IMG/VR virus record: IMGVR_UViG_2791355019_000001
Span: 214 to 64,213 of that record
Origin: a virus
Lineage: Duplodnaviria; Caudoviricetes
Length of the DNA: 64,000 nt
Reading direction: 5' to 3' (one strand)
Made by a program: the position numbers and the translations under genes. This document shows, one piece after another, positions 48 to 24,932 of the stretch (the stretch's first letter is position 1; every line of letters begins with the position of its first letter). The notes under the pieces are model-generated. The model saw nothing but the letters and a program-made list of their open reading frames with translations, was not told the DNA's origin and did no database searches.

Positions 48-830
48 TCATTGCGCACCCCCGGTCGATGCAGACGACGCCTTGGATACCACAGCCTTCG
101 CTGCGATCGATGCCGCAATCTCGCCGACGCGTTCCGCTCCACGCTCGTTGTAGAGGAAACTCTCCACCTGCTTCGAGGAATGCCGGCTCTTGTCAAGTCG
201 GAACTCTCCGAACTCAGACGTCTTCAGGTCGTGCTCGTTTGCGATACGCCCAACCATATTGGATGTGATGCCGTACCGCTCGCCAACCTCCGTCGCAGAA
301 TAGTGGTGCTCCTGAACGCGCGGCAGTGCAATCACTTCATCGCCAGCAGCCGGATTCACCAGTTTCGCGAAGACAACCTGACGCGCACTTTCGCCGAGTC
401 TCGGAAACTGCGCGCAGATCCGCTCTGCCGCCCTCGTCGCCATATCAATCGCCCGGGCCTTTCTGTATTGCGGAAGGCCAGACGAATGAGACGCGGCCTT
501 CGCGGCGTAGCTCCCGGTCTTACGAATCGACGGAAGAACCTCGTGCGTGACCCAGCGCTTGAACCGCTTGGCCTCCTCCTTCGTGCTACCGAAGATGAGG
601 GCGTACAGACCAGACTCGTTGATGTGGTTGGTTTGCTGCGTCCGGCCCACGCTGTCGATGGCCTCCAACTTCTGGAGGTCATCGACATCGACGTGCGAGG
701 CGAGCGCCTGGTGCGGATTGCCATAGCCGAGCACGTCGCAGACTTCCTTGGCGCTGAACCACGGCTCGCCATTGTCGTCCGTGACGACACGGATGGCACG
801 GCTCTCAAACTGAAACGGTGTGATGTTCAT
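48..830 (-). CDS. BRO-N domain antirepressor-like protein
   Basis: MNITPFQFESRAIRVV...PWFSAKEVCDVLGY...INESGLYALIFGS...AKRFKRWVTHEVLPSIRKTGSY is a typical BRO-N; ATG at 830 overlaps the arc stop. Confidence 0.9.
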   Translation of the reverse strand: MNITPFQFESRAIRVVTDDNGEPWFSAKEVCDVLGYGNPHQALASHVDVDDLQKLEAIDSVGRTQQTNHINESGLYALIFGSTKEEAKRFKRWVTHEVLPSIRKTGSYAAKAASHSSGLPQYRKARAIDMATRAAERICAQFPRLGESARQVVFAKLVNPAAGDEVIALPRVQEHHYSATEVGERYGITSNMVGRIANEHDLKTSEFGEFRLDKSRHSSKQVESFLYNERGAERVGEIAASIAAKAVVSKASSASTGGAQ

Positions 831-994
831 TGCCGGGCCTCCTTCGCTTCTTCGTGGATACGCGACTTCTCCAGCCGGTGAAGAATCTCGCTGTTCAGGG
901 ACCGATGATTCTCGATCGCACTGTGCTGCAACCATCGCTTGAGATCGTGCGGCACCCGTACCGGAGTCGGGCTGATTTGACTTGCTTTCTTCAT
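827..994 (-). CDS. Arc-family ribbon-helix-helix repressor
   Basis: VRVPHDLKRWLQHSAIENHRSLNSEILHRLEKS matches the Arc/Mnt pattern; directly upstream of the antirepressor, as in P22 immI. Confidence 0.85.
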   Translation of the reverse strand: MKKASQISPTPVRVPHDLKRWLQHSAIENHRSLNSEILHRLEKSRIHEEAKEARQ

Positions 995-1034
995 GACTGC
1001 TTCTGCTCCTTTGGGATGTGGCGTAGCTGCATCA

Positions 1035-1090
1035 TAGTACGCACTACATATCATCGCAAGTGGCGATCATGAAAAAATCGCAAGTGGCGA
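1035..1090. promoter_or_regulatory. Putative Arc/Mnt operators in the divergent promoter region
   Basis: Palindrome TAGT-ACGC-ACTA (1035-1046); 14-bp quasi-palindromic direct repeat ATCGCAAGTGGCGA at 1053-1066 and 1077-1090. Confidence 0.6.
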
Positions 1091-1104
1091 GTATCATCTG
1101 CGCC

Positions 1105-1623
1105 ATGAGCGACAAGCTAACCCCATATCCGAGTAGAACTGCAGATCAGTTCGTTGTCCGCTTCCCGGACGGCATGCGCGACCGTCTGAAGGAAGCTGCG
1201 CACGCGAACGGTCGTTCGATGAACGCCGAGATCGTCGCCCGCCTTCAAGCGAGCTTCGAGCAACCCGCCCCCGCCAACATCAGGCTGATCGACCGGATTA
1301 GCGACTCTCCGAGCATCGTCGATGAAATTGCAGCCAAGCTTGCGCAGATGACCCCGGAACAACTGGCCCGACCGCTGGCTGACATCCTTGAAGATCTTCG
1401 CCACACTCAGGAGGCGCTCGCCGAGTCAGCTGCGGCGGCTGATCGAGCGCTCACCCTCGTTCGGCACGAGCTTCCCCCCGGCACTCCGGTCAGCAGCGAT
1501 CCGCTTGCCCTCGTGCGTCGAATGGCCGCAATTCTTGAGACCGGCCAGGACAAGCCGCGCCCGCCTGTTCGCCCGCCGCCAAAGCGCACTACCCTGCGTA
1601 AGCACACGAAGAGGCATTTGTGA
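1105..1623 (+). CDS. Mnt/Arc-family repressor with C-terminal extension
   Basis: DQFVVRFPDGMRDRLKEAAHANGRSMNAEIVARLQASF Arc domain; divergent from arc-ant. Confidence 0.85.
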   Translation: MSDKLTPYPSRTADQFVVRFPDGMRDRLKEAAHANGRSMNAEIVARLQASFEQPAPANIRLIDRISDSPSIVDEIAAKLAQMTPEQLARPLADILEDLRHTQEALAESAAAADRALTLVRHELPPGTPVSSDPLALVRRMAAILETGQDKPRPPVRPPPKRTTLRKHTKRHL

Positions 1624-1688: not shown

Positions 1689-2339
1689 ATGAAATCCACC
1701 GCCCTGAAGCTCGCCGCCGCTCTCATCCTGCTCGCTGCTCTGGGCCATTTTTTTCGGTATGGCGTGGTACCGACCGGCCAGGGAGTCGGTGCGTATCATC
1801 TGGATCGACTGACTGGAAAAATCACTTTCATGCGCGGCAGCGAGAAGCAGACCGTGCGGAACACTCTGGATGAGCTTGCGGCGGCAGCGGACTTCGATCT
1901 AGCGAAAGCCCGCAGCAGAGGGTTTTCAGATTATGAAATTGAACAGTCCCTTCGGCAGCGCCTGAAACAGTGGGGCGACGATTGGTCCGAGTTTGAGTCA
2001 GTCGAACCGCCGAAAAATTCTGCAGCTTTCGATAGCCCGCGCCCTCCAACAACTCCGCTCCCCCTTGCAGAGTTTCGCAAGCGCTATCCGGCATACGGCG
2101 ACATGCCAGACCTTGAGCTCGCCAGTGCGCTGCACAGAAAGTTCTATAGTGATATCCCATGGGATCAGTACGCAGCGACGATCGGCCTTACAGGCAATAA
2201 GACGCTTACGGCTCCTGCTGAGGGGAACGGCATGAAGTTGGTCGAAATCCCCGATGTCGGCGTCGTCGAATTCCCTGCCGATATGACCGATGCGCAGATC
2301 ACAGAGGCCATCGAGCGCGAGTTTTTGGACCGGAAATAA
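1689..2339 (+). CDS. Membrane-anchored protein, candidate superinfection exclusion factor (P22 sieA position)
   Basis: N-terminal hydrophobic segment LKLAAALILLAALGHFF; co-oriented with mnt and convergent with the giant ejection gene; contains DDWSEFESV, resembling the QDWSGFEDV repeat of the giant protein. Confidence 0.6.
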   Translation: MKSTALKLAAALILLAALGHFFRYGVVPTGQGVGAYHLDRLTGKITFMRGSEKQTVRNTLDELAAAADFDLAKARSRGFSDYEIEQSLRQRLKQWGDDWSEFESVEPPKNSAAFDSPRPPTTPLPLAEFRKRYPAYGDMPDLELASALHRKFYSDIPWDQYAATIGLTGNKTLTAPAEGNGMKLVEIPDVGVVEFPADMTDAQITEAIEREFLDRK

Positions 2340-2398: not shown

Positions 2399-5300
2399 CT
2401 ACTTCACGTTCCCGACCGCCTCCCGCCACCGCTTCAGGTACGCCTCGTGAATGTCCGAGCGGCGTTTTTCTGTCAGCTTAAGCTGCATCCGCTTCTCGGC
2501 TTCAGTCATCATTTTGCTGTCCTTGGTGCGCTTGTCTTGCTCGTAGGTGCGTCCAAGCTGCTCCATGTACGCCTGGGTAAAGCTCCCGACGCTAATCATG
2601 ACCTCGTTCGACTTCATCATCTCCGTCGCAATCTCAGGGCTCACCTTCCGCGCATCCCTGTGCGCATTGAAGGCCGGCAAGGCTTGGTTGGCCACCTCGT
2701 AGAACTTGCTCTGATCCTGGCGGAATCCGATCTCGCCATAGGCTTTGCGAAGGAAGGGCGCCTTGGTGATGTCCTCTTCGGCAATCGCATCGTAGCTGCC
2801 CGACAAGAAGGACATCGGCCCGCCAAGGTACGCACGGGCGTAGTTGCGCCACACAGAAGGCGGCATCGAAATCAAACCCTCTTCGAACTGATTGCCCCCC
2901 GTCGCCTCATTGACGAACGCAGCCCACTTCTGCCAGCCCGTGTCGTGCATGCCGGCGCCGTACTTCTCCGAGTCGGGCTTGTGCTTGTTCCATTGCGTTT
3001 CGGGGTACAGGGGGCCGTCGCCGAATCCAGACTTGTTTGCAAAGTGCTGGTGGACCGGTGCGTAGGTGGGCGGATAGCCAGTCACCGGCATGAACGAAGT
3101 CGCGCCGGACACCGCAAGCCGAACCGCAGCACTTCCCGGCTTGATGCCGTGCGCGGCGTTCTCGCTGTTGCGATGCACGTCCACCGCAAGGGTGGCGGCG
3201 TACATCGGCACGTTCCACTGGTACGGCAGCGGAATCTTGAAGTACCGACCCGTCGAGTCGGGGATGGGCTGGCCGATGTCCTTGGCGAACGACGGCAGCA
3301 CGATGATGATGTTTCGCTCCTTCTCGTACTGGGGAATCTTGTCCCAGTAGGGGATGCCGTCATCGTCGTCACCGGCCATTGCGTTCAGCACCGCAAGCGC
3401 TGCCATGCCGGCCATGCCAGCGCCGATCAGCGCCCACGCCTGGCCCTTGTGCTTGCCATGCACCAGGGTTTCGTACATGTTGTGCACGCCCTGAACGGCC
3501 GGATTGAAGAACAGGAAGATGGAGCCGAGGCCGGCCGTCCAGGTGCCGCGGCGGTTGAAGTTGACGTTCAGGTTCTTCGCAAAGTGCGCTGCCTCGGCCT
3601 TGCTGCGCCCCGCTTCACGCATCGCCATGTAAGCCGCCAGACGGGTTGCGTTCTCAAGAGCGCCGGCATGGCCGGTGACAAGCCGCTCCAGTGCTTTCGC
3701 CGCCTTCACCGGCACGCGCCACGAGTTCTTGATCGTCAGCGACTCCATCTCTTTGACCAGCGTCTCGATCTCCTTCACCTTGCTTTCCAAGGTGTTCAGG
3801 TTCCAGAAGCCGGTCTTGCCGCCCATCGCTTTGTACTCTTCGTACAGCGGGTCTTTCGCAGCCTTCACGCCGGGGATATTCGGCATGGCCTCGCCACGGT
3901 ACGCAGCCAGCACGGCGCGCGGGTAGTTCTTGGCGAACAGGCCGGTCATGCCGATGCCTTCGCGCCCGGTAATCGAGAACAGCGCGGCCTGCAAGTCACG
4001 CGCCGGGTTGGTGTAAAGCGCAAACTCAGGCGACCAGGCGGTGTAGGACTTCGACAGGTAGCGGTTGAACGCTCCGATGTACGGGATCGCGCCGAACTCC
4101 ACGTCGTTCCAGTGGTTCGCCATCTGCTCGAACAGCTTCCGATCATGAATCTTCAGATAGACGACGTGACCCTTCACCTTCACCCCGATGGTGCCGTCGC
4201 CCTTATCGACCAGCGAATCCAGCGTCACCTTGCCGTTCTTGAAGCCCTGCTTCGTCTTCTGTGCGTCGATCTCCCACAGGTCCGGGTCGGGGTTGTCGAT
4301 GATGAACTGAAGGAAGCGGTGGTTCACTTCCGTGTTCTTGGTGCCGCGAACAATTGCGCGCTCGGCGTCGAGCATGATGTTCTCGAAGAGTTGACCGGCC
4401 TTCGAGTCGCGACCTAGTGCGCGCAGGTTTTCACTGCCGCGAATGTTGAAGCCCCTGCCGGTCCCCCGAAACGTGCGCCCGTCTTCGTCAATCGTCTCGA
4501 ACCCGCGCAGCGGAACCCACTTCCGGTACTTGGCGTTGTAGGCGTCGAACTCGCCCTGTGTGATGAGTCCGCTATCGAGCTGGAGCTGAAGCGTGTCGCG
4601 GGCGATTCGACGGATCGCGTCGGCCAGTCGGGCCAGCTTTGCGTCCGTCCCTTCCTGCCTGGCCTTGTCGATGATGGCCTTTGCTTCGGCGTCGGACATG
4701 CCGGAGCCCGTCTTCACGTGGGCATTGATCGACTGCATCTCAGCATTTCGCTCGGGTGCGTGCTCCGCGTAGGCATACAGCACCACTTCGTCCAAGGAAA
4801 CGCCGCTTGCCTTTACATCCTCAAGGATGGCTTTGGTCTTTTCGCCAAGCTGCTCGATGCGGTTTGACGCAACACCGTGGAAGCGGTCTTCGCCCCAGTC
4901 AAAGTTGTTCAGATCGGTAACGACGCCGCCTTGCTCTGCCACCGCTTTCACGACATCGCGAAGTCGGTTGTAGCGGTCCTGGATGCGCTCTTGCGCGGTG
5001 TCGGTTTTCTTCCAAGGGGGAAGCTCGAATCCGGCAGACCCATGCTGGGCTGGAAGCGCGGCCTGGCCGGCGCGAGAGAAATTGAGGTGGCCGCGCCCAG
5101 CTTGACCTCCGCTATCTTCAGGGATCACAATTCGGACATCCCCGGTATCGCTTCGGGCGTAGGACGGCACGATTCGATCCTTGATCGCTTCAAAATCCGT
5201 CGTACCGGGGTACTTCCTCATGCTGGTCATTGCCAGCGTCTTGCGCCCCGATCGCACCTCTTCAAGATACAGCACAGCCCCGTCAGGAAGCCGCTTCAGG

Positions 5301-8300
5301 CTTCCGACGATGTCCTGTCCGCGCGGCGTTTTCGCCCCCAACAGCCAAGCGTCAGGAGTGCTGACGATTTCCGGTATTGCGGAGATGTCAGATTCCACCA
5401 AAGGGAGTTGGCCCCGCTTGGCCTCTGCCTTCGCGTCACCATGCCGATTAAGCGCATGGCGCACCGCGAACATGTCCGCCGTGTGTTTGAAGCTGACATC
5501 CACGGGGACGTTCTCGCGCTGCAGCAGGCTGGCCTGTTGATCTGTCACCGTCCCGAGCGTTACCGTCTTGTTCTCGTTTCCGGCAGATCTCGCCAGGGCG
5601 ACCAATCCTCGAAGGGCGCTCTTCAGTGCGTCGCCAATCCGGCTTTGCCCCGCCTGCCCTGCGACATCCCCTCTCGCCATGTCGCGCACGTTGAGCTTCG
5701 CCAGCGCCACCAGATCATCGATGCTCGGGTTCAGCGCCACGCCGCGGCGCAGACCCCAGGCGCGCACCATCGCCACGAAGTCGCGCACGAGATCGCCGAC
5801 ACGCTTGCCCAGCTTGCGGTCGATCCAGTTCATCAGTGCGCCATCGACCGTCGAGAAGCCGGCTTGCCGGCCTTCGGTGACGGCCTGCTCCACGATGTAG
5901 GCTGCGGCCTCGGCCGCGTTACCCGTCTCGCCGGCGTCGTCCATGCGCTGCGCCACGCGCGTCAGGAACTCCCGCACCGGCTTCACCGCGTTGTCACGCA
6001 CCTCGATCAGCGCCAGCGCGCGCGCATCGATCTCGGCGCGCTGCTTGCCGTGGGTGGCCTCGTGCAGCAGCACGGCCGCCGCGGTGTGATCGGCGAGGTG
6101 CGGCAGCACGAGGAAGGTCAGGCCGCTGTCGCTGTCGTGAAAGCCCTGCACGTCGCCCGCATCCGAATACTGCGTGCCGTCGCCCTGCAGCGCGTGCAGC
6201 ACGTCGCCCGGGTCGTTGCCCGTCTTCTCGGCATAGGCGCGCGCGATCGAGACGTCGTCGCCCTGCTCGATCAGCACCAGGCCGCCGCGCTGCCCCGCTT
6301 CGCCGCGGCCGAGCATCTGGTCGACGGCGCCGGCCAGGGAGGGCAACTGGCGCGCGACGATGGCGCGCAACGCCTCCGCGGTCATCGGCGAGGGGCGCGC
6401 GTGCGTCGCCACCGCGTTGGCCGGCGTCGGCGCGCTGGCCATCTCGGTGCCGTTGAACACCACGATCACGTCTTCATCGGCCACGTCGGCGGTCGCGCTC
6501 GGCGGCATCGCGCGGCGCTCGGCGTCGGTCATGCGCTGGCGGGCCTGTGCGTTGCGGGCTTCCACCTCTCCGGCCAGACGGCGGTACTTTTCGGCCGGCG
6601 TGCCGGGCATCCGCCCCAGATCTCGCGAGGAATTTTCCTCCGCGAGGATGCTGGCTTCGGGTGCCGCATCGCGGCCGAGCGTGTTCAAGAACCATGCGCG
6701 CGCCTCGCCGAGACTCTCGCCGCGGTCCATGCGTGCGCGCAGCACCTTCGCGTCGTTCATCGCCTGCGGCGACGGCATGGTTTCCTCGAGGCTGGCAATG
6801 CTTCCGCCAGTCGCGAAGCCCTCAGCCTCCTGAATGCCGTGCTGGATCTCGTGCAGCAGCACCGACAGCGCATCGTCTTTGGTTCGCGCTTCGACGGTGA
6901 TCTGCGGCGAGCGCCCAAACGTTTGATCGTCACCCGGATGACCTTCTTCGAACATGCCTCGCTCACGCGAACCCGGCGAGAACGAGATCACCACGTCCAT
7001 CGAGCGCAGCTCCGGGTATGCGGCAAACAGCGCAGGGTGGTCTAGGATGTCGGACAAATAAGTCGCGCGAGATCCGCCGTATTCGTCCTCGCGCATATTG
7101 ACGAGGCCTGCGTCCGCATCGTTGATCTCGAAGCGCCACTTCCCGTCGGCTCCGCGGTGCCACCCGGTCTCCCGCCGCACGACTTCGGCATCCTCGCCGG
7201 CCTCGATGCGCCGCTGCGCGACATCGAGCGCCATCGTGTCGGCAGTGCGGGCGTTCTGGCCGGCGAAGGAGTAACGAAGATTGACAACATCTTCGTCGGT
7301 GATTACTCTTGGATTGAGCCTCTTGATGGTGTTCGCCTCGGGCAATTGGAGCCCGACTGCACGAAGCCATCCTGAGGCTTTTTCTGTTTGGTAGTAGCGC
7401 AGACTGCCGCGCATCCACCGCTCGATGTCTGCGGCATCGTCCTTGCCATAGATGCTGGCGACCTTGTTGATGCGGTGAAAGCCGCCGCCCTTGGCATCGA
7501 GGTGCACCGCCACAACGACCGGGCGGTCGCTGTCGTCACGCGCGTCGACCAACGCGACCAGCGCCCCTTTCTCCGTCTTCGAGTCAAAGACCATCACCGG
7601 ATCGGCCAGCAGTGCCGGCAGATCGCGCAGCGCCGCAACAGGCACGTCGTGCCCACGAATGGCCGGTCGGCTGGCCTTGTGGATCATGCTCGACGGCATC
7701 TGAATCGGCAGCGCCCTGGCGCCCAGCGCGCGCAGCACGGCGGGGGTATCGCCTACGGTCAGATCGCTGCGCGGCGCAGTCTCCATTGCTGCGATGCGAT
7801 CAACCGCCAGCGCGTATTGCTGGGCGTCATAGGGGTCGGGCCTGAACTGCGATGAGCGGCTGAGCTTCAGCCCGCCCTGGCCCGTCAGGTTCTCCATCGG
7901 GTCCATGCCCAGCTCGAACGTGTCGGCTGCGGCTTCACTGCGACGGCGGACTTCTGCGCGCCCTTCCTCCTGGCGCTGCTTGGCTGCCGCTTCACGCTCG
8001 GCGCGGGCGTCGGCTTCCGCCTGTGCGGTCTGCTCGGCTTCGCGCTGGGCGATGTCGGCGCTGGTGTAGGTTTCGAGCGTCAGCCCTTCTTGCTGTCCTG
8101 CTGCGCCCGCTTGTGTTTGCGCTGCGCCAGTTTCACCAGCCCGTTCGCCAGTTGTTGCCGCTCCTCTGACGTCAGTCGCTTCAGCGCTTCCTGCGCCTGC
8201 TTCAGTTTGTCCGCCTGCATTTGCAATTTCCTCTTCGGTGAAACCCAACGTACGCATGGCGTCGGCTTCGGATTGTTCGGCGAAGTCTCCGAATGCGTCA

Positions 8301-11185
8301 TCGAAGAACTCGGCTACTTCGCGAGCGTCTGGATTGTTCAGCACGGCATCGAACGACGCCTCGAAGTCATACATCGACTGATCTTCGGGCGCCAGATAGC
8401 CAGGATTACGCTGAGCGTCCAGCCATTCCATCATGCCCTCGATGGTGCGCGCGGATTTGACCGGAATCCATTTGCCCTGCGCGGCATCCTCGATGTGCTG
8501 CGCAAGAACGTCCGGGCGCGCTTCCATGCCCGACAAAAACCATTCTGCGCGCGGAATCCATTTGGTGCGACTAGCCTTGCCTTCAGCATCGCGGATGAGC
8601 TTTCCACCTTGCTCTGCCCATCCGGCGTCTTGCGCCATGGCGCGAAGGTCGTCGACCACCGGCATCGCGCGCTGAGTCAGGGTAGGGTCAGGTTTCAGGC
8701 GGGAACGCGCGTCCGCCGCTTTCGCCTGTGCCTGCGCGGGATTCGGCGGGTTCGTGTCCGGAGGAATGTCCGGCTGGACCGCTTGCGCCGGCGCGGCCAC
8801 GGCAGCTCCTGCGCGACGGAAAGCGGCTGCCATCGCCGAGTCCGCATGCTGATTTACACCGGCCGCCTCTGTGCGCGCCACGGCCTGGGCGATATCCTGG
8901 TCCACGGCCTCGGCGTGCAGCAGCTCGAGCTCCCTCCCCTTCTGCTCTTCGCGCTGGCGGTAGGCGTAATCTTCCTCGCGCCTGCGCAGCTCGGCCGCCG
9001 CGGCGTCGCGCGCTGCGGGGTCGGCGTGCGCGCGCGCCGTGAAGAGAAGCCCGGCCGGCGAAAGACTGGCTACGTCGAGCCGGCCCGCATGAGGCTCCGC
9101 ACCGACAGGGGGGTTACGCTCGCCTTCGCTCACGTCCGTTCGGCGCCCCTCTCCCTGGTCGCCCTGCATGAACCCAGCCACGTCGCCGAACTCCGTACTG
9201 ACGCGTTGCTTGGCGCCGGCGACGGCTTCCATTACCGGGCCGGCGAAGCGGGTCGACACCATCACCGCACCATCCTTGCGCGTGAGCGTCGGCGCCTCGG
9301 GGGCAACGGCCTTCACCGCCTCGGCGGCGCGCTCGCCGGTGACGATGACGTTGCCGTGGGCGTTGGCGACGGCCTCGACCTGCGCGAGCAGCGCGTCCTG
9401 GTCGACGTCGATCGTACCGGGGCGGGACGTTTGGGCGGCTGGAGCCGGTTGGCCTGCGCTGCGCACGGCGGCATTCTCGGCGCGCGTCACGGCAAGCTCC
9501 GCCGCGTCGCCGGTGGATGCGGCTTCGGCTTCGCGCTGCTGCAGGGCCTGCTCGATTGAGGCGGCAGCCTGTTGGGCAACGTCCGCCATCGCCGGCATTG
9601 CCGCCGGCGCCTCCGGGGCGACCGGCGCGGCACGTTGGACTTCGGCCCACTGCGCATTGCTCGGGTCAAGCGCCTGGCGGGCAAGGGCGTCGACCTGCCC
9701 CCGATAGGCGGCCTCGGCAGCAACCTGCTCGGGGTCCGCGGCCTGCGCCGGGGCGGCGTTGATCGCGCCCACTGCGGCGCCCATCGGCCCGGCGGCGGCC
9801 GCTTCCATCGTTCCATGGTTGGCGATCTGGCGCAGATCCAGCCCGTCGCGTGTACCCTCGACGATCTGGCCCGTCTGCGAGCCGAGGGCTTCGCTCGCGC
9901 CCTCGCCGAACTCCTGCGCCGTCTCGACGGCGGCGGTGCGCCCTGCCGCAACGACCGGATTGGCCGTGCCGGCCGTGCCGCGCGCCACCACGCCCTCGGC
10001 GCCGCCGGCGGTCAGCTTGCCCACGGCGCGGGTGCCCAGCCCCGCGATCAGTGCCGCGGTGTACTTGGCAAGATCCCCGCCTTCGGTTTCAGCGTAGGCC
10101 GAGCCGGCGTTTGCGGCGGCGTTGGCCCACACCGCGCCGTCGGTGGCAGCCCGCTGCTGGATGCGCGCCAAGGCCCGCTCGGACACGCGCCCGGCGTACC
10201 TGCCCGCCACCGCCTTGCCGGTGGCCGCGCCGGCGCCGCCGATGAGGAAGATCGACCCCGCGCTCGGGATCGCCACATCGGCGAGCAGATCGGGGTTCTG
10301 TACGAGGTGCTGCATCACCTGGTCGGGCGTGCCGTTGCGCACGACTTCGGCGAGTTTGGCACTCTTGCCCTGCATCTGGCGCGACTGCGACTTGCTGATG
10401 TCCTCGATCACGTCAGCGAGCGCATCCGACCCCCACTCGGCCGCGCGCCCTACCAGCGGCGCGAGCTGCAGCACGTCGAGCGCCATCTTGCCGGTGGTGG
10501 GCGCCACCTTCGCCACCGAGCCGGCCAGGTTCACCGCGCCGCGCACAAGGTCACTGTCGCCGTGCTCTCGCGCGAGCTTGTCGGCGAGCGTGTCCGGGGT
10601 TTCGACCGCACGCGCCACCGGTGCATCAACGCCGGCAGCGCCCTGGCTCGCGGCGGTCATCGCGGCGGCATCGGCGTCCATGCCCTGCTCGATGCCACGG
10701 GCGATGCGCGACTCCTTGCGGCCGTCGAGATTCTGCGCAGCCGGCAGCCCAGCGGTGGCGGCGTCGCCCTGGCGGTACTCGGCATCCATCTGTCGGGCAA
10801 GGTCGCCCACCCAGTCCTGGCGCGCGAGCAGCCGCGGGCGCGACTCGGGGAAGCGCTCGTAGCTCTGGCGCACGAAGTCGATCGAGGCGGGGTTCGCCGG
10901 GGTCGTGCGCGGCGCAGCAGGCGGCGCCTCGAATCCGGCCATCACGGTGTCGGGCTTTTCCGGCGCGCGCTCGAACGGGGCCGCCATGTTCTCGAACAGC
11001 TTCTTGCCGGCGGTGATCGCGCGATCGGTGAGGCTGGGCCCGGCCGGGGGGTCTTCCACATCCTCGAAGCCCGACCAGTCTTGAGCTGTTGCGTCCGGGG
11101 CCACATCCTCGAAGCCCGACCAGTCTTGAGCTGTTGCGTCCGGGGCCACATCCTCGAAGCCCGACCAGTCTTGTTCTTTCGCCAT
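2399..11185 (-). CDS. Giant (2928 aa) polyvalent internal virion / DNA ejection protein
   Basis: Last gene of the ejection cluster; recognisable segments: MuF-C/PBECR-like (LPALLADPVMVF..INKVASIYGK), LPD23-like (ETGWHRGADGKWRFEIND), two HExxH zincin motifs (HEIQH, HEATH), PBECR-like (VRHALNRHGD..GQLPL..IPEIVSTPD), LPD38-like C-terminus. Confidence 0.8.
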   Translation of the reverse strand: MAKEQDWSGFEDVAPDATAQDWSGFEDVAPDATAQDWSGFEDVEDPPAGPSLTDRAITAGKKLFENMAAPFERAPEKPDTVMAGFEAPPAAPRTTPANPASIDFVRQSYERFPESRPRLLARQDWVGDLARQMDAEYRQGDAATAGLPAAQNLDGRKESRIARGIEQGMDADAAAMTAASQGAAGVDAPVARAVETPDTLADKLAREHGDSDLVRGAVNLAGSVAKVAPTTGKMALDVLQLAPLVGRAAEWGSDALADVIEDISKSQSRQMQGKSAKLAEVVRNGTPDQVMQHLVQNPDLLADVAIPSAGSIFLIGGAGAATGKAVAGRYAGRVSERALARIQQRAATDGAVWANAAANAGSAYAETEGGDLAKYTAALIAGLGTRAVGKLTAGGAEGVVARGTAGTANPVVAAGRTAAVETAQEFGEGASEALGSQTGQIVEGTRDGLDLRQIANHGTMEAAAAGPMGAAVGAINAAPAQAADPEQVAAEAAYRGQVDALARQALDPSNAQWAEVQRAAPVAPEAPAAMPAMADVAQQAAASIEQALQQREAEAASTGDAAELAVTRAENAAVRSAGQPAPAAQTSRPGTIDVDQDALLAQVEAVANAHGNVIVTGERAAEAVKAVAPEAPTLTRKDGAVMVSTRFAGPVMEAVAGAKQRVSTEFGDVAGFMQGDQGEGRRTDVSEGERNPPVGAEPHAGRLDVASLSPAGLLFTARAHADPAARDAAAAELRRREEDYAYRQREEQKGRELELLHAEAVDQDIAQAVARTEAAGVNQHADSAMAAAFRRAGAAVAAPAQAVQPDIPPDTNPPNPAQAQAKAADARSRLKPDPTLTQRAMPVVDDLRAMAQDAGWAEQGGKLIRDAEGKASRTKWIPRAEWFLSGMEARPDVLAQHIEDAAQGKWIPVKSARTIEGMMEWLDAQRNPGYLAPEDQSMYDFEASFDAVLNNPDAREVAEFFDDAFGDFAEQSEADAMRTLGFTEEEIANAGGQTEAGAGSAEATDVRGAATTGERAGETGAAQTQAGAAGQQEGLTLETYTSADIAQREAEQTAQAEADARAEREAAAKQRQEEGRAEVRRRSEAAADTFELGMDPMENLTGQGGLKLSRSSQFRPDPYDAQQYALAVDRIAAMETAPRSDLTVGDTPAVLRALGARALPIQMPSSMIHKASRPAIRGHDVPVAALRDLPALLADPVMVFDSKTEKGALVALVDARDDSDRPVVVAVHLDAKGGGFHRINKVASIYGKDDAADIERWMRGSLRYYQTEKASGWLRAVGLQLPEANTIKRLNPRVITDEDVVNLRYSFAGQNARTADTMALDVAQRRIEAGEDAEVVRRETGWHRGADGKWRFEINDADAGLVNMREDEYGGSRATYLSDILDHPALFAAYPELRSMDVVISFSPGSRERGMFEEGHPGDDQTFGRSPQITVEARTKDDALSVLLHEIQHGIQEAEGFATGGSIASLEETMPSPQAMNDAKVLRARMDRGESLGEARAWFLNTLGRDAAPEASILAEENSSRDLGRMPGTPAEKYRRLAGEVEARNAQARQRMTDAERRAMPPSATADVADEDVIVVFNGTEMASAPTPANAVATHARPSPMTAEALRAIVARQLPSLAGAVDQMLGRGEAGQRGGLVLIEQGDDVSIARAYAEKTGNDPGDVLHALQGDGTQYSDAGDVQGFHDSDSGLTFLVLPHLADHTAAAVLLHEATHGKQRAEIDARALALIEVRDNAVKPVREFLTRVAQRMDDAGETGNAAEAAAYIVEQAVTEGRQAGFSTVDGALMNWIDRKLGKRVGDLVRDFVAMVRAWGLRRGVALNPSIDDLVALAKLNVRDMARGDVAGQAGQSRIGDALKSALRGLVALARSAGNENKTVTLGTVTDQQASLLQRENVPVDVSFKHTADMFAVRHALNRHGDAKAEAKRGQLPLVESDISAIPEIVSTPDAWLLGAKTPRGQDIVGSLKRLPDGAVLYLEEVRSGRKTLAMTSMRKYPGTTDFEAIKDRIVPSYARSDTGDVRIVIPEDSGGQAGRGHLNFSRAGQAALPAQHGSAGFELPPWKKTDTAQERIQDRYNRLRDVVKAVAEQGGVVTDLNNFDWGEDRFHGVASNRIEQLGEKTKAILEDVKASGVSLDEVVLYAYAEHAPERNAEMQSINAHVKTGSGMSDAEAKAIIDKARQEGTDAKLARLADAIRRIARDTLQLQLDSGLITQGEFDAYNAKYRKWVPLRGFETIDEDGRTFRGTGRGFNIRGSENLRALGRDSKAGQLFENIMLDAERAIVRGTKNTEVNHRFLQFIIDNPDPDLWEIDAQKTKQGFKNGKVTLDSLVDKGDGTIGVKVKGHVVYLKIHDRKLFEQMANHWNDVEFGAIPYIGAFNRYLSKSYTAWSPEFALYTNPARDLQAALFSITGREGIGMTGLFAKNYPRAVLAAYRGEAMPNIPGVKAAKDPLYEEYKAMGGKTGFWNLNTLESKVKEIETLVKEMESLTIKNSWRVPVKAAKALERLVTGHAGALENATRLAAYMAMREAGRSKAEAAHFAKNLNVNFNRRGTWTAGLGSIFLFFNPAVQGVHNMYETLVHGKHKGQAWALIGAGMAGMAALAVLNAMAGDDDDGIPYWDKIPQYEKERNIIIVLPSFAKDIGQPIPDSTGRYFKIPLPYQWNVPMYAATLAVDVHRNSENAAHGIKPGSAAVRLAVSGATSFMPVTGYPPTYAPVHQHFANKSGFGDGPLYPETQWNKHKPDSEKYGAGMHDTGWQKWAAFVNEATGGNQFEEGLISMPPSVWRNYARAYLGGPMSFLSGSYDAIAEEDITKAPFLRKAYGEIGFRQDQSKFYEVANQALPAFNAHRDARKVSPEIATEMMKSNEVMISVGSFTQAYMEQLGRTYEQDKRTKDSKMMTEAEKRMQLKLTEKRRSDIHEAYLKRWREAVGNVK
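11056..11173. repeat. Perfect 45-bp tandem repeat (2.6 copies) encoding QDWSGFEDVAPDATA
   Basis: Unit CCACATCCTCGAAGCCCGACCAGTCTTGAGCTGTTGCGTCCGGGG starting at 11056, 11101 and (partial) 11146. Confidence 0.95.
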
Positions 11186-11215: not shown

Positions 11216-11248
11216 AGGCTAAGCAAGGCCGTGCAGAAGGGGTGCCCT
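11216..11248 (-). promoter_or_regulatory. Putative late promoter AGGGCACCCC-N17-TAGCCT
   Basis: One of six motif copies with identical spacing; upstream of the giant gene. Confidence 0.6.
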
Positions 11249-12371
11249 ATCGCGCCGGCACGCGCTTGCGCGCCCCGCTCGGCGTGATGAACTCAGTGCC
11301 CGGGGGCAGTCGCATTGCTTCCTCTGGCGATGTGACGCTAATCGGGCCGCTGGGCTTGGGTGCCGCAGGCGCGTCGGGCTTCGTGATCTCGGCGTAAATC
11401 TGCTTCGCAGCCGAAACCAACTCAGGCACGGTCTTCCCTGCGTTCAGATGATCGCCTTGCAACTTCGTCACAATGCTGGCGATTGCTTCTTCGGCGTTGC
11501 GCCCGCGCGCGGTGCGCACCATGTCCCAAGCGCTGGCCGTGTCTTTTGCAACGCCGTTTCGGATCAGCCATTCGGCGGTCTGGACTTCTGCCGGAACGCT
11601 GCCCGCCTTCCGGCCAGGGCGCTGTTTGGGATCGAGCAGGCGCAGTCCTTCGTTCTCGAGCCGCTGCCCAGCTGCCTCGGCGGCGTACTTGCCGGCCTGC
11701 GCGCCGGAGGCGCCTGCCGATGCCCGCGCTGCAACGGCTTGCGCTTCGTTCTCGATCGCCTTCGATCGCAGCTCTTCCATCTTCAGCTGTCGCTCCTGGT
11801 CGGCAAGGATGTCGTCGGCGCCGAGAATGGAGCCGAGCTGCATCATGGTGAAGCTGCGCACCGGCGTGCCGTCCTCGCCCACCACGGCGAAGAGCTGGCT
11901 CGGCCGCCCGAATTCGTCCGCGCCCTGCGTTGGCTGCACGGTCACGCGCCGGCCGAAGCTTTGCGAAAGCGCATCGCCCAGCTTGCCTGCATCCCCCATG
12001 CGCAGCGCCGCGGTCACGCCGCGCTGGCGCAGCTCCTTGACGTTCTTCAGCAAGGGCTCGAGCTCCTCGCGCTTGGCCTTGCCGGTTTTCACGCTGCGCT
12101 TGAATATCTCGGAGCTCACCTGCAGCGGGTCGGCGTCGGCGCCCATCTCGCTCCACGTCGTCGATGCGATCTGATCGAGCTCGGACAGCCGCTTCCGTTC
12201 GGCCTGCTTCGTGTCGCGATCCTGGCGCTGCCAGTCCTGATCCTGCTGCAGCATCGACAGCCGCGCCTGGTTCTGCCGCAGCTGCATGTCCTGCGCGTTC
12301 TTCTGCTGCTGGAACTGCGCTCCAGCCATCAGCCCCTGGCCGATGCCGCCGAGTAGGTTCAATCCGCTCAT
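11247..12371 (-). CDS. Putative DNA ejection protein (P22 gp20-like position)
   Basis: Gly-rich amphipathic N-terminus MSGLNLLGGIGQGLMAG, Gln-rich coiled coil, C-terminal SPEEAMRLPPGTEFITPSG; lies between the other two ejection genes. Confidence 0.6.
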   Translation of the reverse strand: MSGLNLLGGIGQGLMAGAQFQQQKNAQDMQLRQNQARLSMLQQDQDWQRQDRDTKQAERKRLSELDQIASTTWSEMGADADPLQVSSEIFKRSVKTGKAKREELEPLLKNVKELRQRGVTAALRMGDAGKLGDALSQSFGRRVTVQPTQGADEFGRPSQLFAVVGEDGTPVRSFTMMQLGSILGADDILADQERQLKMEELRSKAIENEAQAVAARASAGASGAQAGKYAAEAAGQRLENEGLRLLDPKQRPGRKAGSVPAEVQTAEWLIRNGVAKDTASAWDMVRTARGRNAEEAIASIVTKLQGDHLNAGKTVPELVSAAKQIYAEITKPDAPAAPKPSGPISVTSPEEAMRLPPGTEFITPSGARKRVPAR

Positions 12372-13918
12372 GCCAGCGCCCCCAGTCCAACGGTCTTGAT
12401 GGTGTCGGGCGTCTTGCCCTGCTTGCGCATCTGCAAGCCCTTCTTGTTGAGCTTTTCCAGCGTGCCCAGGCCGATCGCCTTGGAGGCCTCGGCGTTCAGG
12501 ACGAACTCTTCTTCGGTGAGCATGGACGGCACGTTGTCCGTGTTGCCCTGCCACTTGCCGGGCACATCGCCTCCGGGGCGCAAGTCCTGGATGGCCCCCT
12601 TCCGCCCGGCATCCGAGAAGCGCGCCGCGGCCTCCTGCTCGCTCACGCCCTTGTTCTGCGTGCCGACCCGGCCGCCGTCGGCCCACAGATCCAGCAGCGA
12701 GCCGACTGCGTAGGCAGCACCCACCCACGGCAGGGCTGCGCCGACCGAACCCATCAACCCAGCCGCCGCGCCACCCTCCGCAGCAATCGCTGCGCCCGCA
12801 CCTGCGCCTTCAGCAACGGTCCCGGCGGTCGTAGCCAAACCGGCCTCTTGCAAGCCCGCCATTGCAGCAGAGGACACCGCTTCGGACGCAGCGGGCGCAG
12901 CGGCAGCAACCTCGCTGACGGGCTTGATCACAGCATCCGCAACCGGCGCTTGCGCGACCTGCGACTGCGGGCCGACGATGCTGGTGTAGGCATCCGCCGC
13001 CTTGTCCGCGACCATGTTGCCGACCTTGTCCGCAGCGGTCGCAATCGTCGGGTTTTTGCCAGCCATCGTCGCCATACTTGCCATCGTCACCGGGCTTATG
13101 CCGCCCCGCTGTTGCGGCGCCTGCGCACTCGGGGGCGGCGCGATCTGCTGCATCTGGAAAAAGCCCCGGTTCTGCTGACTGCCGGCCTGGCCGCCGAGCA
13201 TGTGGCGCTCGACCTTCTTCAGCCCGGACAGGCCGCCCACCCCCTTCACCTTGCCGCCGTCCTTGAACATCGACAGCGCCATCATGCCGCCGCCCACCGC
13301 CGAGCCGATCGCATTCGACTGTGCCTGGTCCTGCGCCATCTGCTGATTGGCCTGCGTCGAGTACAGGCTACCCAGGCCGCTCAAGGCGTTGCCCATCTGC
13401 GTGGCGGCGCTGTTGCTCTGCCCGGTGAAGGTGCCCACCGCATCCTGCGCCACGGCGAGCTGGTATTTGCTGGCGTCGTTGCGGGCGATGTTCTGCCCCG
13501 CGGCCATGCGCGCGGCGTTGTTCAGCTCGGTGCTGCGCATCGAGCCAGCGAAGCGCGGGTCGTTCGGGTTGACGCCCATCGAAGCCAGATTGCGCTCGGT
13601 GGCGGCGCGCTCCATGGCGTTGGCGCCCGCCATGTCGGCGGCGGCCAGGCCCGCCTGGCGCCCGGCGTAGCCCGGATCCTGAATGGCTCCGACCTGATCG
13701 ACATAGCTTTGCACCGCGCCCGGCAGATTGGCCTCAGCCTGTTCGCGCAGCAGGCGCGCGGAGGCGGCCTGTTCTTCGTAGAGGTCTTCGAGGCTGTCGT
13801 ACTTGACCGAGCCGCTGTCGCCGCCGCCGCCGTACAGCCGGTGCAGCCGCCCGCTCGGCGAAGGGCGAAACGCTCGTACATCAAGATCAGGGCCGCAGGC
13901 CCATAGAGTTTGTTTCAC
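12368..13918 (-). CDS. Putative DNA ejection protein (P22 gp7-like)
   Basis: GTG start overlapping the upstream stop (GTGA); short basic leader ending RLYGGGGDSG; Ala/Gly/Gln-rich with hydrophobic segments. Confidence 0.6.
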   Translation of the reverse strand: MKQTLWACGPDLDVRAFRPSPSGRLHRLYGGGGDSGSVKYDSLEDLYEEQAASARLLREQAEANLPGAVQSYVDQVGAIQDPGYAGRQAGLAAADMAGANAMERAATERNLASMGVNPNDPRFAGSMRSTELNNAARMAAGQNIARNDASKYQLAVAQDAVGTFTGQSNSAATQMGNALSGLGSLYSTQANQQMAQDQAQSNAIGSAVGGGMMALSMFKDGGKVKGVGGLSGLKKVERHMLGGQAGSQQNRGFFQMQQIAPPPSAQAPQQRGGISPVTMASMATMAGKNPTIATAADKVGNMVADKAADAYTSIVGPQSQVAQAPVADAVIKPVSEVAAAAPAASEAVSSAAMAGLQEAGLATTAGTVAEGAGAGAAIAAEGGAAAGLMGSVGAALPWVGAAYAVGSLLDLWADGGRVGTQNKGVSEQEAAARFSDAGRKGAIQDLRPGGDVPGKWQGNTDNVPSMLTEEEFVLNAEASKAIGLGTLEKLNKKGLQMRKQGKTPDTIKTVGLGALA

Positions 13919-14328
13919 TGGTTGGACTCCAGGATTGCAACGCTGTAACCGACATCGAAGCCGGCGCGCTGGTACAGGCGGGCCACCGTGTTTCGGCAGC
14001 GGGTTTCGATCCAGTCGCAGCCCAGCGTGCGTGCAGCTGCGATCAGGGCCTCTTTCGCGCGCGACCCACCGCGGCCGGCGCCGTACTGGATGTAGAGCAC
14101 GCGCTTGCGGGGGTAGTTTGCGACGGTGCAGGTGACGACAAACTCGACCTCGGAGCGTTCGTTGACAATGCCTGCCGCGAACATTTCGCCCCGGGCGATG
14201 CCGTCGTGAATGTCGGCCAAGGTGTATTCGCCGCGGCCATAGGGCAGCGCCGCCGCGACCAGTGCGCCGATCTGCGGCCACAGGCAGCCGACAGCCAGAT
14301 CCTTGGGGATGACGCCGATGAATTCCAT
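13915..14328 (-). CDS. GNAT-like virion assembly protein (P22 gp14-like position)
   Basis: 137 aa, AAARTLGCDWIETRCR..VARLYQRAGF acetyltransferase-like tail; directly upstream of the gp7-like gene. Confidence 0.55.
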   Translation of the reverse strand: MEFIGVIPKDLAVGCLWPQIGALVAAALPYGRGEYTLADIHDGIARGEMFAAGIVNERSEVEFVVTCTVANYPRKRVLYIQYGAGRGGSRAKEALIAAARTLGCDWIETRCRNTVARLYQRAGFDVGYSVAILESNQ

Positions 14329-14335
14329 GTCGCCG

Positions 14336-14369
14336 ATGCTCGCCTCGATCGCCGGGCGGGGGTGCCCTT
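14336..14369 (-). promoter_or_regulatory. Putative late promoter AAGGGCACCCC-N17-GAGCAT
   Basis: Motif copy in the intergenic gap. Confidence 0.6.
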
Positions 14370-14409
14370 GGTGCGCGCGACGCTACCGCGACATGACTAT
14401 GCTTTGATG

Positions 14410-24930: not shown

Positions 24931-24932
24931 GC

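What the first reader, a model, noticed from the sequence alone, without database searches (positions are those of the whole stretch)
1689..2339. Membrane-anchored chain of ejection-protein terminal motifs: candidate decoy superinfection exclusion system
Seen: an N-terminal TM segment followed by four short modules joined by linkers: DFDLAKARSRGFSDYEIEQSL; DDWSEFESV; LAEFRKRYPAYGDMPDLELASALHRKFYSD; MKLVEIPDVGVVEFPADMTDAQITEAI. Module 2 matches QDWSGFEDV, which is triplicated at the N-terminus of this phage's own giant ejection protein on the convergent neighbouring gene. From memory (not searched), the other three modules resemble N-terminal segments of ejection proteins of other podophages. 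Known: P22 sieA sits between ejection gene 16 and mnt and blocks DNA entry. Inferred: the lysogen displays a panel of ejectosome docking peptides from several phage groups and jams assembly of incoming ejection conduits. I know of no description of such a mechanism.
Basis: partly seen in the sequence, partly recalled or inferred. Interest (0 to 1): 0.8.

Follow-up and report, generated by a model that had tools for sequence, protein, structure and literature searches.

The report
Membrane decoy of phage ejection-protein heads
A prophage gene sitting where phage P22 keeps its exclusion gene sieA encodes a small membrane-anchored protein strung with four short modules that otherwise head the large injected proteins of this and other short-tailed phages, so it probably blocks DNA entry by rival phages through mimicry, though nothing has been tested.

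Summary
ORF 1689-2339 (+) encodes a 216-aa protein: one N-terminal hydrophobic helix, then four small modules on flexible linkers.

All four modules map to the N-termini of proteins in the P22 gene-16 position:
- M2 (DDWSEFESV): the resident giant protein, 3 copies.
- M3: hundreds of viral proteins.
- M4: 12 of 12 viral loci.
- M1: one related prophage, weaker evidence.

M3 and M4 occur nowhere else in this genome. Homologs shuffle module content.

The gene lies just downstream of a Mnt homolog and converges on the last ejection gene, as sieA does in P22. It has no sequence similarity to SieA.

New here: each module type co-occurs with its own C-terminal tail on the upstream ejection protein.
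- M3 with DPLG(I/L)R: 82 of 83 loci.
- M4 with (F/Y)NPxTGx(I/V)E: 12 of 12 loci.

This suggests a tail-to-head handshake that the membrane protein could intercept.

Best reading (about 0.5): a polyvalent decoy that excludes superinfecting phages. The scan's earlier notes record similar decoys on other DNA, and my four literature searches found no description in print.

The parts
1689..2339 (+). Candidate decoy exclusion protein P0001, 216 aa. Alternative GTG start at 1620 gives 239 aa.
   Evidence: ORF and translation. No significant Pfam, NCBIfam or PADLOC family. AF2 model shows small domains on flexible linkers.
1692..1751 (+). N-terminal hydrophobic helix (aa 2-21): signal-anchor or signal peptide, placing the rest in the periplasm.
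   Evidence: AF2 helix 2-21, pLDDT about 90. Hydropathy scan. Lys-rich N-terminus read. The topology is inferred.
1758..1829 (+). Conserved core beta-sheet (aa 24-47, Y-x-L-D-R-x-T-G motif), shared by all full-length relatives.
   Evidence: Alignment A1. Also present in a module-less roughly 80-aa homolog in genome G174 at the same kind of position.
1890..1964 (+). Module 1 (aa 68-92, DFDLAKARSRGFSDYEIEQSLRQRL).
   Evidence: Present in P0003. Resembles two tandem repeats at the N-terminus of the gene-16-position protein of a related prophage, G040/L117: SW score 48, reached by 0 of 2000 shuffles. BLASTP was negative.
1977..2003 (+). Module 2 (aa 97-105, DDWSEFESV): copy of the resident giant protein's N-terminal motif.
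   Evidence: Genome-wide motif count: 4 of 4 occurrences lie in these two neighbouring genes.
2061..2195 (+). Module 3 (aa 125-169): three-helix mini-domain, an N-terminal module of gene-16-position and polyvalent virion proteins.
   Evidence: phrog_10691 positions 4-58, E 6.2e-4. 841 proteins at E<=1e-3. Starts within the first 12 residues in 117 of 153 proteins and in 80 of 80 viral loci. The only copy in the genome.
2235..2330 (+). Module 4 (aa 183-214): beta-hairpin plus helix mini-domain.
   Evidence: At residues about 3-12 of 200 to more than 2031-aa ORFs in 12 of 12 viral loci. The only copy in the genome.
1060..1623 (+). Mnt homolog (Arc-family ribbon-helix-helix repressor), directly upstream on the same strand.
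   Evidence: Pfam Arc, E 8.7e-20. 32% identity to P22 Mnt, E 2e-10.
827..1054 (-). Arc-like repressor, divergent from the mnt homolog.
   Evidence: Pfam Arc, E 4.1e-8. Back-to-back promoter-like sites at 1031-1059 (-) and 1069-1097 (+).
48..935 (-). Antirepressor (BRO-N / Ant).
   Evidence: Pfam Bro-N, E 4.7e-29. PHROG anti-repressor Ant, E 1.1e-54.
2399..11185 (-). 2928-aa polyvalent virion/ejection protein (gene-16 position), convergent with P0001 across a 59-nt gap.
   Evidence: Pfam MuF_C, LPD23, PBECR3 and LPD38. A relative with the same N-terminus carries 2 motif copies.
11057..11173 (-). Three tandem QDWSGFEDV motifs at the giant protein's N-terminus (aa 5-43).
11247..12371 (-). Upstream ejection-type protein gpB (gene-20 position, 374 aa). 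Its C-terminal ~85 aa are not conserved in two related prophages whose downstream N-terminal modules also differ.
   Evidence: relatives match query residues 1-230 and 123-289 only.. No PHROG or Pfam hit.

Best explanation
P0001 is most likely a prophage-encoded, inner-membrane-anchored, periplasm-facing superinfection-exclusion protein that works by mimicry.

In short-tailed phages of this kind, three ejection proteins leave the virion and build a conduit across the envelope. The N-terminus of the last one (P22 gene-16 position, here a giant polyvalent protein) carries a short module. That module appears to pair with the C-terminal tail of the preceding one (gene-20 position, the periplasmic tube). 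Different phage groups use different tail/module pairs.

P0001 displays four such N-terminal modules on flexible linkers: one of the resident phage's own type (M2) and three of foreign types (M1, M3, M4). Expressed with the Mnt repressor in the lysogen, it would capture the tube ends of incoming phages of all four types, or otherwise compete with their gene-16-type proteins. The conduit would never couple to the inner membrane and DNA would stay out.

Shown: the anatomy, where the modules come from, module shuffling, the sieA-like position, and tail/module co-occurrence.
Inferred: the topology, expression in the lysogen, tail-module binding, and exclusion.
For: 1. Position. The layout is [ejection genes] -> <- [P0001] <- [mnt homolog] | [arc, ant], the same as P22 7-20-16 -> <- sieA <- mnt | arc ant.

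2. M2 matches the resident giant protein's triplicated N-terminal motif. All 4 genome-wide occurrences of the pattern lie in these two genes.

3. M3.
- 841 library proteins at E<=1e-3.
- In 117 of 153 proteins M3 starts within the first 12 residues, and 64 of those 117 are 500 aa or longer.
- In 80 of 80 viral-contig loci it starts about 4 residues after the Met of a 590-845-aa ORF.
- In contig L079 that ORF follows a phrog_598 'DNA ejection' gene and a 455-aa gene, i.e. it sits in the gene-16 position.
- In Vibrio phage 1.211.A and Thalassomonas phage BA3 it heads the 2715-aa and 2631-aa giant proteins.

4. M4 is at residues about 3-12 in 12 of 12 viral loci.

5. M1 resembles the tandem N-terminal repeats of the P0002 homolog in prophage G040.

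6. M3 and M4 occur only in P0001 in the 3.71-Mb genome. The genome's prophage has no DPLGIR tail and the genome has no YNPxTG tail. These modules therefore have no resident counterpart.

7. Module shuffling on the same anchor:
- P0003: M1+M4
- P0011: M3
- P0014: M4
- P0010: M3
- G174 homolog: none

8. Tail/module code.
- The upstream protein ends in DPL[G/E/R][I/L]R in 80 of 80 M3 loci and in both cultured phages.
- It ends in [FY]NPx[TK]Gxx[ED] in 12 of 12 M4 loci.
- There are no cross-combinations among 1668 and 336 ORFs.
- The tail codons vary synonymously.
- The upstream proteins fall into 24 clusters at >=50% identity.

9. Periplasmic setting of the modules elsewhere. Thirteen M3 proteins have a hydrophobic segment N-terminal to M3. 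By my reading of the sequences printed, 7 of these also have a C-terminal hydrophobic segment followed by basic residues. One protein fuses a lytic-transglycosylase-like region (my reading of its sequence; no domain search run) to M3 (P0106).

10. Precedent. [quoted passage not shown] The gp20 C-terminal 33/66 aa are essential, and high MOI saturates SieA (PMC10883804: abstract, sections 5 and 13, and part 1 of section 14 (Discussion) read).
Against: - No functional, binding or expression data of any kind.
- The tail/module co-occurrence could reflect physical linkage. The two elements are adjacent on the DNA and may simply move as one mosaic cassette. The loci are also related to each other and were chosen as the best matches to my query.
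- One exception: in prophage G299 an M3-like N-terminus (HMM E 3.3e-8) follows a gpB homolog whose tail is not DPLGIR.
- None of the 92 viral loci carries a second M3 or M4 ORF within about 6-10 kb, so such decoys are not a regular companion of these ejection genes.
- M3 also occurs in cellular TM + 2xM3 proteins whose C-terminal regions look Sel1-like to me (my reading; not searched). It is therefore not purely a phage docking module.
- M1's match rests on one post hoc pairwise comparison, and BLASTP saw nothing.
- P0001 is rare: 1 partial match in 300 genomes of its family.
- No strong Shine-Dalgarno sequence precedes the ATG at 1689 (read).
Confidence: 0.5

Rival explanations
1. The modules are general periplasmic adaptor mini-domains that bind a conserved envelope component such as peptidoglycan or a membrane protein. 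P0001 is then a lysogenic-conversion envelope protein whose purpose is not to block phage DNA entry. Ejection proteins carry the same modules only because they also work in the periplasm.
For: M3 occurs in cellular TM + 2xM3 proteins with Sel1-like C-terminal regions (my reading of the sequences; not searched), in 5 of 400 sampled genomes of the phylum. It is also fused to a lytic-transglycosylase-like region (my reading; no domain search run) in P0106. The M3-bearing phages infect very different hosts: Vibrio, Thalassomonas, Shewanella and Pelagibacter.
Against: This does not explain why each module type pairs with its own tail on the upstream ejection protein. It does not explain why M2 copies a peptide found only in the resident giant protein, nor the sieA-like position. 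No similarity to any known binding domain was found in Pfam, NCBIfam, PDB sequences or PDB folds.
Confidence: 0.2
2. The N-terminal modules are virion-incorporation (capsid or portal targeting) tags, comparable to the T4 capsid targeting sequence (recalled, not searched). P0001 has some role in the resident phage's own assembly, or in timing, by sequestering or releasing such tags.
For: The modules sit at the extreme N-terminus of cargo-like proteins of very different size and content, 58 to 3478 aa. This is what a transferable tag would look like.
Against: P0001 lies on the opposite strand to the late operon and downstream of the mnt homolog. Its modules follow a hydrophobic anchor and are predicted to be periplasmic. 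Related small proteins hold the modules between two membrane anchors with basic cytoplasmic ends. Three of its four modules match nothing in the resident phage.
Confidence: 0.1
3. P0001 is a mosaic by-product. Recombination at the variable junction between ejection genes left fragments of several N-termini fused to a small membrane protein, with no selected function for the modules.
For: The region is a recombination hot spot. Three related prophages carry three different gpB tails and three different downstream N-termini. The region has lower G+C (0.59-0.60) than the window's mean of 0.66.
Against: The reading frame is intact. M3 and M4 fold with high confidence. P0001 keeps 9 of the 10 nearly invariant M3 positions, with a conservative Y for F at the tenth (read). 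Several independent relatives combine the same anchor with different intact modules. M2 is conserved at the peptide level but not the DNA level.
Confidence: 0.08

Closest known systems
Phage P22 SieA (superinfection exclusion A; Leavitt et al. 2024, PMC10883804)
   Same: Gene position: convergent with the last ejection gene and downstream of mnt, beside arc/ant. Membrane location, predicted for P0001. Presumed target: the gp20/gp16-type ejection proteins. For SieA this rests on escape mutants (abstract and Discussion read).
   Different: No sequence similarity (best E 0.081 for a single pairwise comparison). SieA is described as having several predicted transmembrane helices and a conserved cytoplasmic motif (section 13). 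P0001 has one N-terminal helix and a roughly 190-aa modular periplasmic part that copies ejection-protein N-termini. No mimicry is described for SieA.
HK97 gp15, TP-J34 Ltp, Tuc2009 Sie2009: membrane or lipoprotein exclusion proteins of long-tailed phages
   Same: Prophage-encoded envelope proteins that block DNA injection. Escape maps to the protein thought to form the conduit, the tape measure (as summarised in the SieA paper's Discussion).
   Different: Their phages have long non-contractile tails. I did not fetch or compare their sequences. As far as that Discussion reports, none is a copy of the target's partner.
Large polyvalent proteins of phages and plasmids (Iyer et al. 2017, PMC5512222); phi24B gp47
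   Same: The neighbouring giant gene is one: MuF_C, LPD23, PBECR3 and LPD38. M3 heads many such proteins. phi24B gp47 (LPD38, MuF-C) was found in virions by proteomics and proposed as an ejection protein (passages seen).
   Different: P0001 is small, membrane-anchored, and holds only the short N-terminal modules with no effector domains. The 12 passages shown for my N-terminus query (of 19 places) in the 2017 paper do not describe these modules.
Earlier notes of this scan on other genomes (e1-5909720, e1-5853084, e1-5356169, e1-3668962 and others)
   Same: Small prophage membrane proteins or lipoproteins that copy the peptide heading the phage's giant injected protein. Two notes report that the copy, the giant's peptide and the neighbouring protein's tail switch together. 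These are AI notes, not independent evidence.
   Different: This protein carries four modules, three of them foreign to the resident phage. Two of them (M3, M4) are folded mini-domains and not short peptides.

Membership tests
P22 SieA family (types A-C) | Sequence homology to SieA, including the motif FxRYPxEAxxFNK | tested here: not met
   BLASTP of P0001 against P22 SieA gave a best E of 0.081 over 45 aa for a single pairwise comparison. The motif, quoted from section 13 of PMC10883804, is not in the P0001 sequence (read).
P22 SieA family (types A-C) | Multi-pass inner-membrane protein | tested here: not met
   P0001 has a single hydrophobic helix, aa 2-21. No dedicated TM predictor was available.
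P22 SieA family (types A-C) | Gene sits between the last ejection gene and the mnt/arc/ant region of a short-tailed temperate phage | tested here: met
P22 SieA family (types A-C) | Blocks DNA injection by related phages | not testable with these tools
   Needs plating, lysogenisation and K+ efflux assays.
M3 module (N-terminal ~45 aa of phrog_10691-type and other virion proteins; no Pfam, NCBIfam or PDB entry found) | Profile match and retention of the conserved positions | tested here: met
   phrog_10691 positions 4-58, E 6.2e-4. My M3 HMM gives E 2.1e-25. 9 of the 10 nearly invariant positions are kept. AF2 pLDDT 93-97. BFVD matches to N-terminal pieces of polyvalent proteins: rmsd 0.5-0.6 over 40-41 residues, prob 1.0.
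M3 module | Location at the extreme N-terminus of the protein | tested here: not met
   In P0001 it is internal (aa 125-169), behind a membrane anchor. This is also true of 13 of the 36 internal cases among 153 proteins.
Known anti-phage defence systems (PADLOC-DB 2.0) | Match to any component model | tested here: not met
   0 families at E<=1 for P0001, P0003, P0014 and P0095.
HK97 gp15 / Ltp / Sie2009 exclusion proteins | Sequence or fold similarity | not tested
   Their sequences were not fetched. PDB fold searches of the P0001 model gave nothing above Z 4.4, which is inconclusive.

The most novel reading that the evidence does not exclude
Short-tailed phages join their periplasmic-tube protein to their inner-membrane or giant ejection protein by an exchangeable 'handshake code': a C-terminal tail on one and a cognate N-terminal module on the other. 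At least four types exist: DPLGIR-M3, YNPxTGxIE-M4, and the types read by M1 and M2. Prophages exploit the code with programmable, modular decoys. P0001 would be a polyvalent version that excludes four phage groups at once by capturing their tube ends at the inner membrane.
Probability: 0.4. Interest if true: 0.85.

Novelty: new variant of a known kind. Interest (0 to 1): 0.8.

Why it matters
If true, it gives a simple, readable rule for who excludes whom among temperate short-tailed phages. The exclusion spectrum could be read from the modules on the decoy and from the tails and heads of the ejection proteins.

It would also expose a specific contact in the poorly understood trans-envelope DNA conduit: tube tail to inner-membrane protein head. 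That contact can be tested directly with peptides and domain swaps.

It would explain why the junction between the last two ejection genes is so mosaic. It would also suggest an arms race, for example the triplication of the resident motif.

Finally, it names two widespread mini-domains (M3, M4) that are absent from Pfam, NCBIfam and the PDB.

Tried and rejected
**Closed or blank tools**
I could not see the genomic context of P0003, P0004, P0011, P0014 or the double-anchored small proteins.
The planned co-fold of a DPLGIR-tailed C-terminus (A4, residues 300-455) with M3 (A5, residues 1-60) was not run.
- RNA runs: none was listed.

**Searches that found nothing useful**
- PDB by Foldseek: no match at E<=0.001. 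PDB by VIA-align wide: best Z 4.4. PDB sequence profile of M3: 0 hits at E<=10.
- tblastn against cultured phages: M1+M2 gave no match; M4 gave one hit at E=1.
- The exact DWSGFEDV coding pattern in IMG/VR gave 3 stretches. Only 1 was in frame (as DWTGFEDV), internal to a protein whose sequence did not resemble an ejection protein (no annotation run). I take it as chance.
- M1 in viral contigs: none.
- A1 (anchor family) in viral contigs: none. In genome contigs: 1 locus.

**Ideas considered**
- That M1 resembles the C-terminal mini-domain of Rhizobium phage RHph_Y25 EVC10_013: rejected, BLASTP found nothing.
- That the anchor's Y-x-L-D-R-x-T-G hairpin mimics the YNPxTGxIE tail: noted by eye, not tested, not claimed.
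- That M3 is a peptidoglycan-binding domain: not tested.
- The M4 jackhmmer run drifted into M3. The two share a [FY]P..M[STP]D..[IL]..A[IL] core. I did not resolve whether they are homologous.

**Literature**
- No paper holds DPLGIR or DPLGLR.
- Listings for decoy / mimic / superinfection exclusion / ejection proteins and for sieA showed no such mechanism. I read only their titles and the starts of their abstracts, apart from PMC10883804.
The domain catalogue of PMC5512222 may bear on whether M3 or M4 was named before.
Full report
**What is there**

ORF 1689-2339 (+) encodes 216 aa. An in-frame GTG at 1620 overlaps the stop codon of the upstream gene and follows AAGAGG. It is a possible alternative start that would add a strongly basic 23-aa cytoplasmic extension.

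AlphaFold2 with a 62-row alignment gives mean pLDDT 77.9 and pTM 0.36. The model shows:
- a hydrophobic helix, aa 2-21;
- a small three-stranded sheet, aa 24-47;
- a helix, aa 52-66;
- M1, two helices, aa 71-94;
- M2, low confidence;
- M3, three helices, pLDDT 93-97;
- M4, a beta-hairpin plus helix, pLDDT 83-94.

The low-confidence linkers are rich in Pro and Thr. The protein is a string of small domains on a membrane anchor. Pfam, NCBIfam and PADLOC give no significant family.

**Context**

The window holds a temperate phage. It has a diversity-generating retroelement reverse transcriptase (20939-21994) and a tail-fibre gene (22663-24954).

On the minus strand, two ejection-type genes are followed by a 2928-aa polyvalent protein:
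- gpA, 12368-14494 (phrog_8003 virion structural protein);
- gpB, 11247-12371;
- the giant protein, with MuF_C, LPD23, PBECR3 and LPD38 domains.

P0001 converges on the giant gene across 59 nt. Directly upstream on its own strand is an Arc-family repressor that is 32% identical to P22 Mnt (E 2e-10). An Arc-like gene and a BRO-N antirepressor lie divergently.

The annotated P22 record shows the same layout: 7-20-16, then convergent sieA, orf59a and mnt, then arc and ant. P0001 is therefore a positional analogue of sieA. It is not a homologue.

**M2**

The giant protein begins MAKE(QDWSGFEDV-APDATA)x2-QDWSGFEDV. P0001 has DDWSEFESV.

The pattern DW[ST].F[ED].V occurs 4 times in 6.79 million six-frame residues of the whole genome, all in these two genes. 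Only 15 of the 24 nucleotides agree, so the peptide is conserved and the DNA is not.

A 2816-aa relative that a source names as a Thauera aromatica LPD38 protein has the same N-terminus with two copies and different central domains. The public gene call for the resident giant protein (P0162, 2901 aa) starts at an internal GTG and drops two of the three copies.

**M3**

- phmmer of P0001 against 1.84 billion representatives finds 841 proteins at E<=1e-3. Nearly all of the 150 listed match aa 125-172.
- I held 156 proteins. Of these, 153 others carry M3. In 117 of the 153 it starts within the first 12 residues: 43 are <=200 aa, 10 are 201-499 aa, 49 are 500-999 aa and 15 are >=1000 aa.
- The bodies belong to phrog_5880, phrog_10691 and polyvalent families with InPase or LPD38 domains.
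- In cultured phages, 20 records match, all through M3. In Vibrio phage 1.211.A and Thalassomonas phage BA3 it heads the giant gene that follows the portal, coat and adaptor genes.
- In IMG/VR at least 600 stretches match and 564 were confirmed. In the best 80 loci M3 starts about 4 residues after the only available Met of a 590-845-aa ORF, in 80 of 80.
- In the 37-kb contig behind L079 the order is: major head, adaptor, head closure, a 935-aa gene, phrog_598 'DNA ejection', a 455-aa gene, then the M3 protein. That is the P22 gene-16 position.
- BFVD and the ESM Atlas place the fold in N-terminal pieces of viral polyvalent and 600-730-aa proteins. The PDB has nothing similar.
- In the window's own genome M3 occurs only in P0001.

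**M4 and M1**

M4. A profile of 14 instances finds it only in P0001 in the genome and in none of the 80 M3 loci. A viral-contig scan with three close instances returned 12 loci. In 12 of 12 the module sits at residues about 3-12 of ORFs from 200 to more than 2031 aa with Gly/Ala-rich bodies.

M1. It was found only in the close homolog P0003 and in one other place. A search with gpB found homologs in 2 of 300 genomes of the family. In G040 the protein downstream of the gpB homolog is homologous to P0002 residues 95-175 (E 1e-7). It begins with two tandem repeats, GFDLExARxAGAxDxRIAxFLAxR, and ten columns are invariant with M1. The Smith-Waterman score is 48, reached by 0 of 2000 shuffles of either sequence. 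BLASTP reported no alignment, and the comparison was made after seeing the sequence, so I count this as moderate evidence.

In G299 the corresponding protein starts with an M3-like module (HMM E 3.3e-8).

Three related prophages thus carry three different N-terminal heads on the gene-16-position protein. Their gpB proteins are alignable only outside the C-terminal ~85 residues.

**Module shuffling**

The anchor plus core recurs with different cargo:
- P0003: M1+M4;
- P0011: M3;
- P0014: M4;
- P0010 and L004: M3;
- a roughly 80-aa version in G174: no module. It again converges on the last structural gene, near a gene whose product looks antirepressor-like to me from its N-terminal sequence (my reading; not searched).

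Other small proteins hold M3, M4 and short motifs between an N-terminal and a C-terminal hydrophobic segment whose outer ends are basic (P0004, P0019, P0095, P0107, P0113). By the positive-inside rule the modules then lie in the periplasm. P0106 joins a lytic-transglycosylase-like region (my reading of its sequence; no domain search run) to M3.

I infer that the modules act outside the cytoplasm.

M3 loci:
- In all 80, the gene just upstream ends within 60 nt of the M3 gene.
- Its product ends in DPL[G/E/R][I/L]R plus 0-4 residues.
- Among 1668 ORFs of >=100 aa in those loci, exactly 80 have this tail, one per locus.
- The tail is invariant in an alignment of proteins only 26-40% identical to the first sequence.
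- Its codons vary synonymously, and many loci have a separate ribosome-binding site after the stop. It is therefore not a translation signal for the next gene.
- Both cultured phages show it...NNDPLGLR and ...ENDPLGIR.

M4 loci:
- In all 12, the upstream product ends instead in [FY]NPx[TK]Gxx[ED].
- 12 of 336 ORFs carry it, one per locus, and there are no cross-combinations.

A gp7-like gene precedes the tail-bearing gene in both cultured phages and in 4 of the 12 M4 loci.

The window's genome has no YNPxTG tail and its prophage has no DPLGIR tail.

Caveats:
- The loci are the best matches to my queries and are related to each other: 24 clusters of upstream proteins at >=50% identity and 8 at >=30%.
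- Tail and head are neighbours on the DNA, so linkage alone could keep them together.
- G299 is an exception.

**Mechanism**

The P22 work reports the following (abstract, sections 5 and 13, and part 1 of section 14 (Discussion) read):
- Escape mutants lie in the C-terminal regions of gp20 and gp16.
- The C-terminal 33/66 residues of gp20 are essential.
- gp20 probably forms a tube of extended chains, and gp16 sits at the inner membrane.
- High multiplicity saturates SieA.

Put together with the tail/head code, the simplest reading is that the tube protein's tail docks on the head module of the gene-16-position protein at the inner membrane. P0001 is anchored there and shows four head modules on flexible linkers. 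It would capture incoming tube ends and abort the conduit.

I put this at about 0.5. The rivals are:
- a general periplasmic adaptor with another purpose (0.2);
- a packaging-tag function (0.1);
- a mosaic by-product (0.08).

**Novelty**

Four literature searches found no description of such a decoy or of the DPLGIR tail. For most papers I saw listings only, and supplements were closed.

The scan's own notes report similar decoys on other DNA in at least 18 genomes. Two notes report co-switching of decoy, head and tail. These are unchecked AI notes. My tail/head result was obtained before I read them, and on different loci.

What sets this case apart is the four-module panel, three modules of which are foreign to the resident phage.

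Noticed in passing
L019-L098, L102-L113, L001:11064-11945, L002:9086-9940: The C-terminal tail of the gene-20-position protein co-occurs with the N-terminal module of the next protein. DPLG(I/L)R goes with M3 (82 of 83 loci) and (F/Y)NPxTGx(I/V)E goes with M4 (12 of 12). There are no cross-combinations.
   Followed up: yes
window 11105-11185 (-): The public gene call for the giant protein (P0162, 2901 aa) starts at an internal GTG inside the repeat and omits two of the three QDWSGFEDV motifs. The ATG at 11185 has GAGG 7 nt upstream and matches the start of the Thauera-named relative P0163.
   Followed up: partly
window 1620-1623: An in-frame GTG overlaps the stop codon of the mnt homolog (GTGA), with AAGAGG 5 nt upstream. 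P0001 may be translationally coupled to Mnt and may carry a 23-aa Arg-rich N-terminal extension.
   Followed up: no
L008, L010, L012 (G486, G374, G302); L009, L011: Cellular proteins with a membrane segment, a long low-complexity linker, two tandem M3 modules and, in some, C-terminal regions that look Sel1-like to me (not searched). M3 is therefore not confined to phage proteins.
   Followed up: partly
L006:10380-10800 (Rhizobium phage RHph_Y25 EVC10_014); P0095: A phrog_5880-type structural protein begins with two copies of a short FDDL(I/V)P motif. The same motif (FDDLIP) follows M4 in the double-anchored small membrane protein P0095. Other short N-terminal motifs also recur in anchored small proteins: NPFDRFD in P0145, FDQFD in P0094, and GPWxKY in P0015, P0017 and P0019.
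   Followed up: no
L017:9944-10186 (G174): A minimal ~80-aa homolog with the anchor plus core and no modules. It converges on the last structural gene of another prophage, with a gene nearby whose product looks antirepressor-like to me (my reading of its N-terminal sequence; not searched).
   Followed up: partly
P0045 (2634 aa): It carries M3 at residue 3 and again at residue 2605, i.e. at both ends of a giant protein.
   Followed up: no
   Followed up: partly
window 1060-1623 (+), residues 37-134: Weak PADLOC hit of the Mnt homolog's C-terminal extension to ZorA (E 3.3e-4). My guess, untested: helical-region noise.
   Followed up: no
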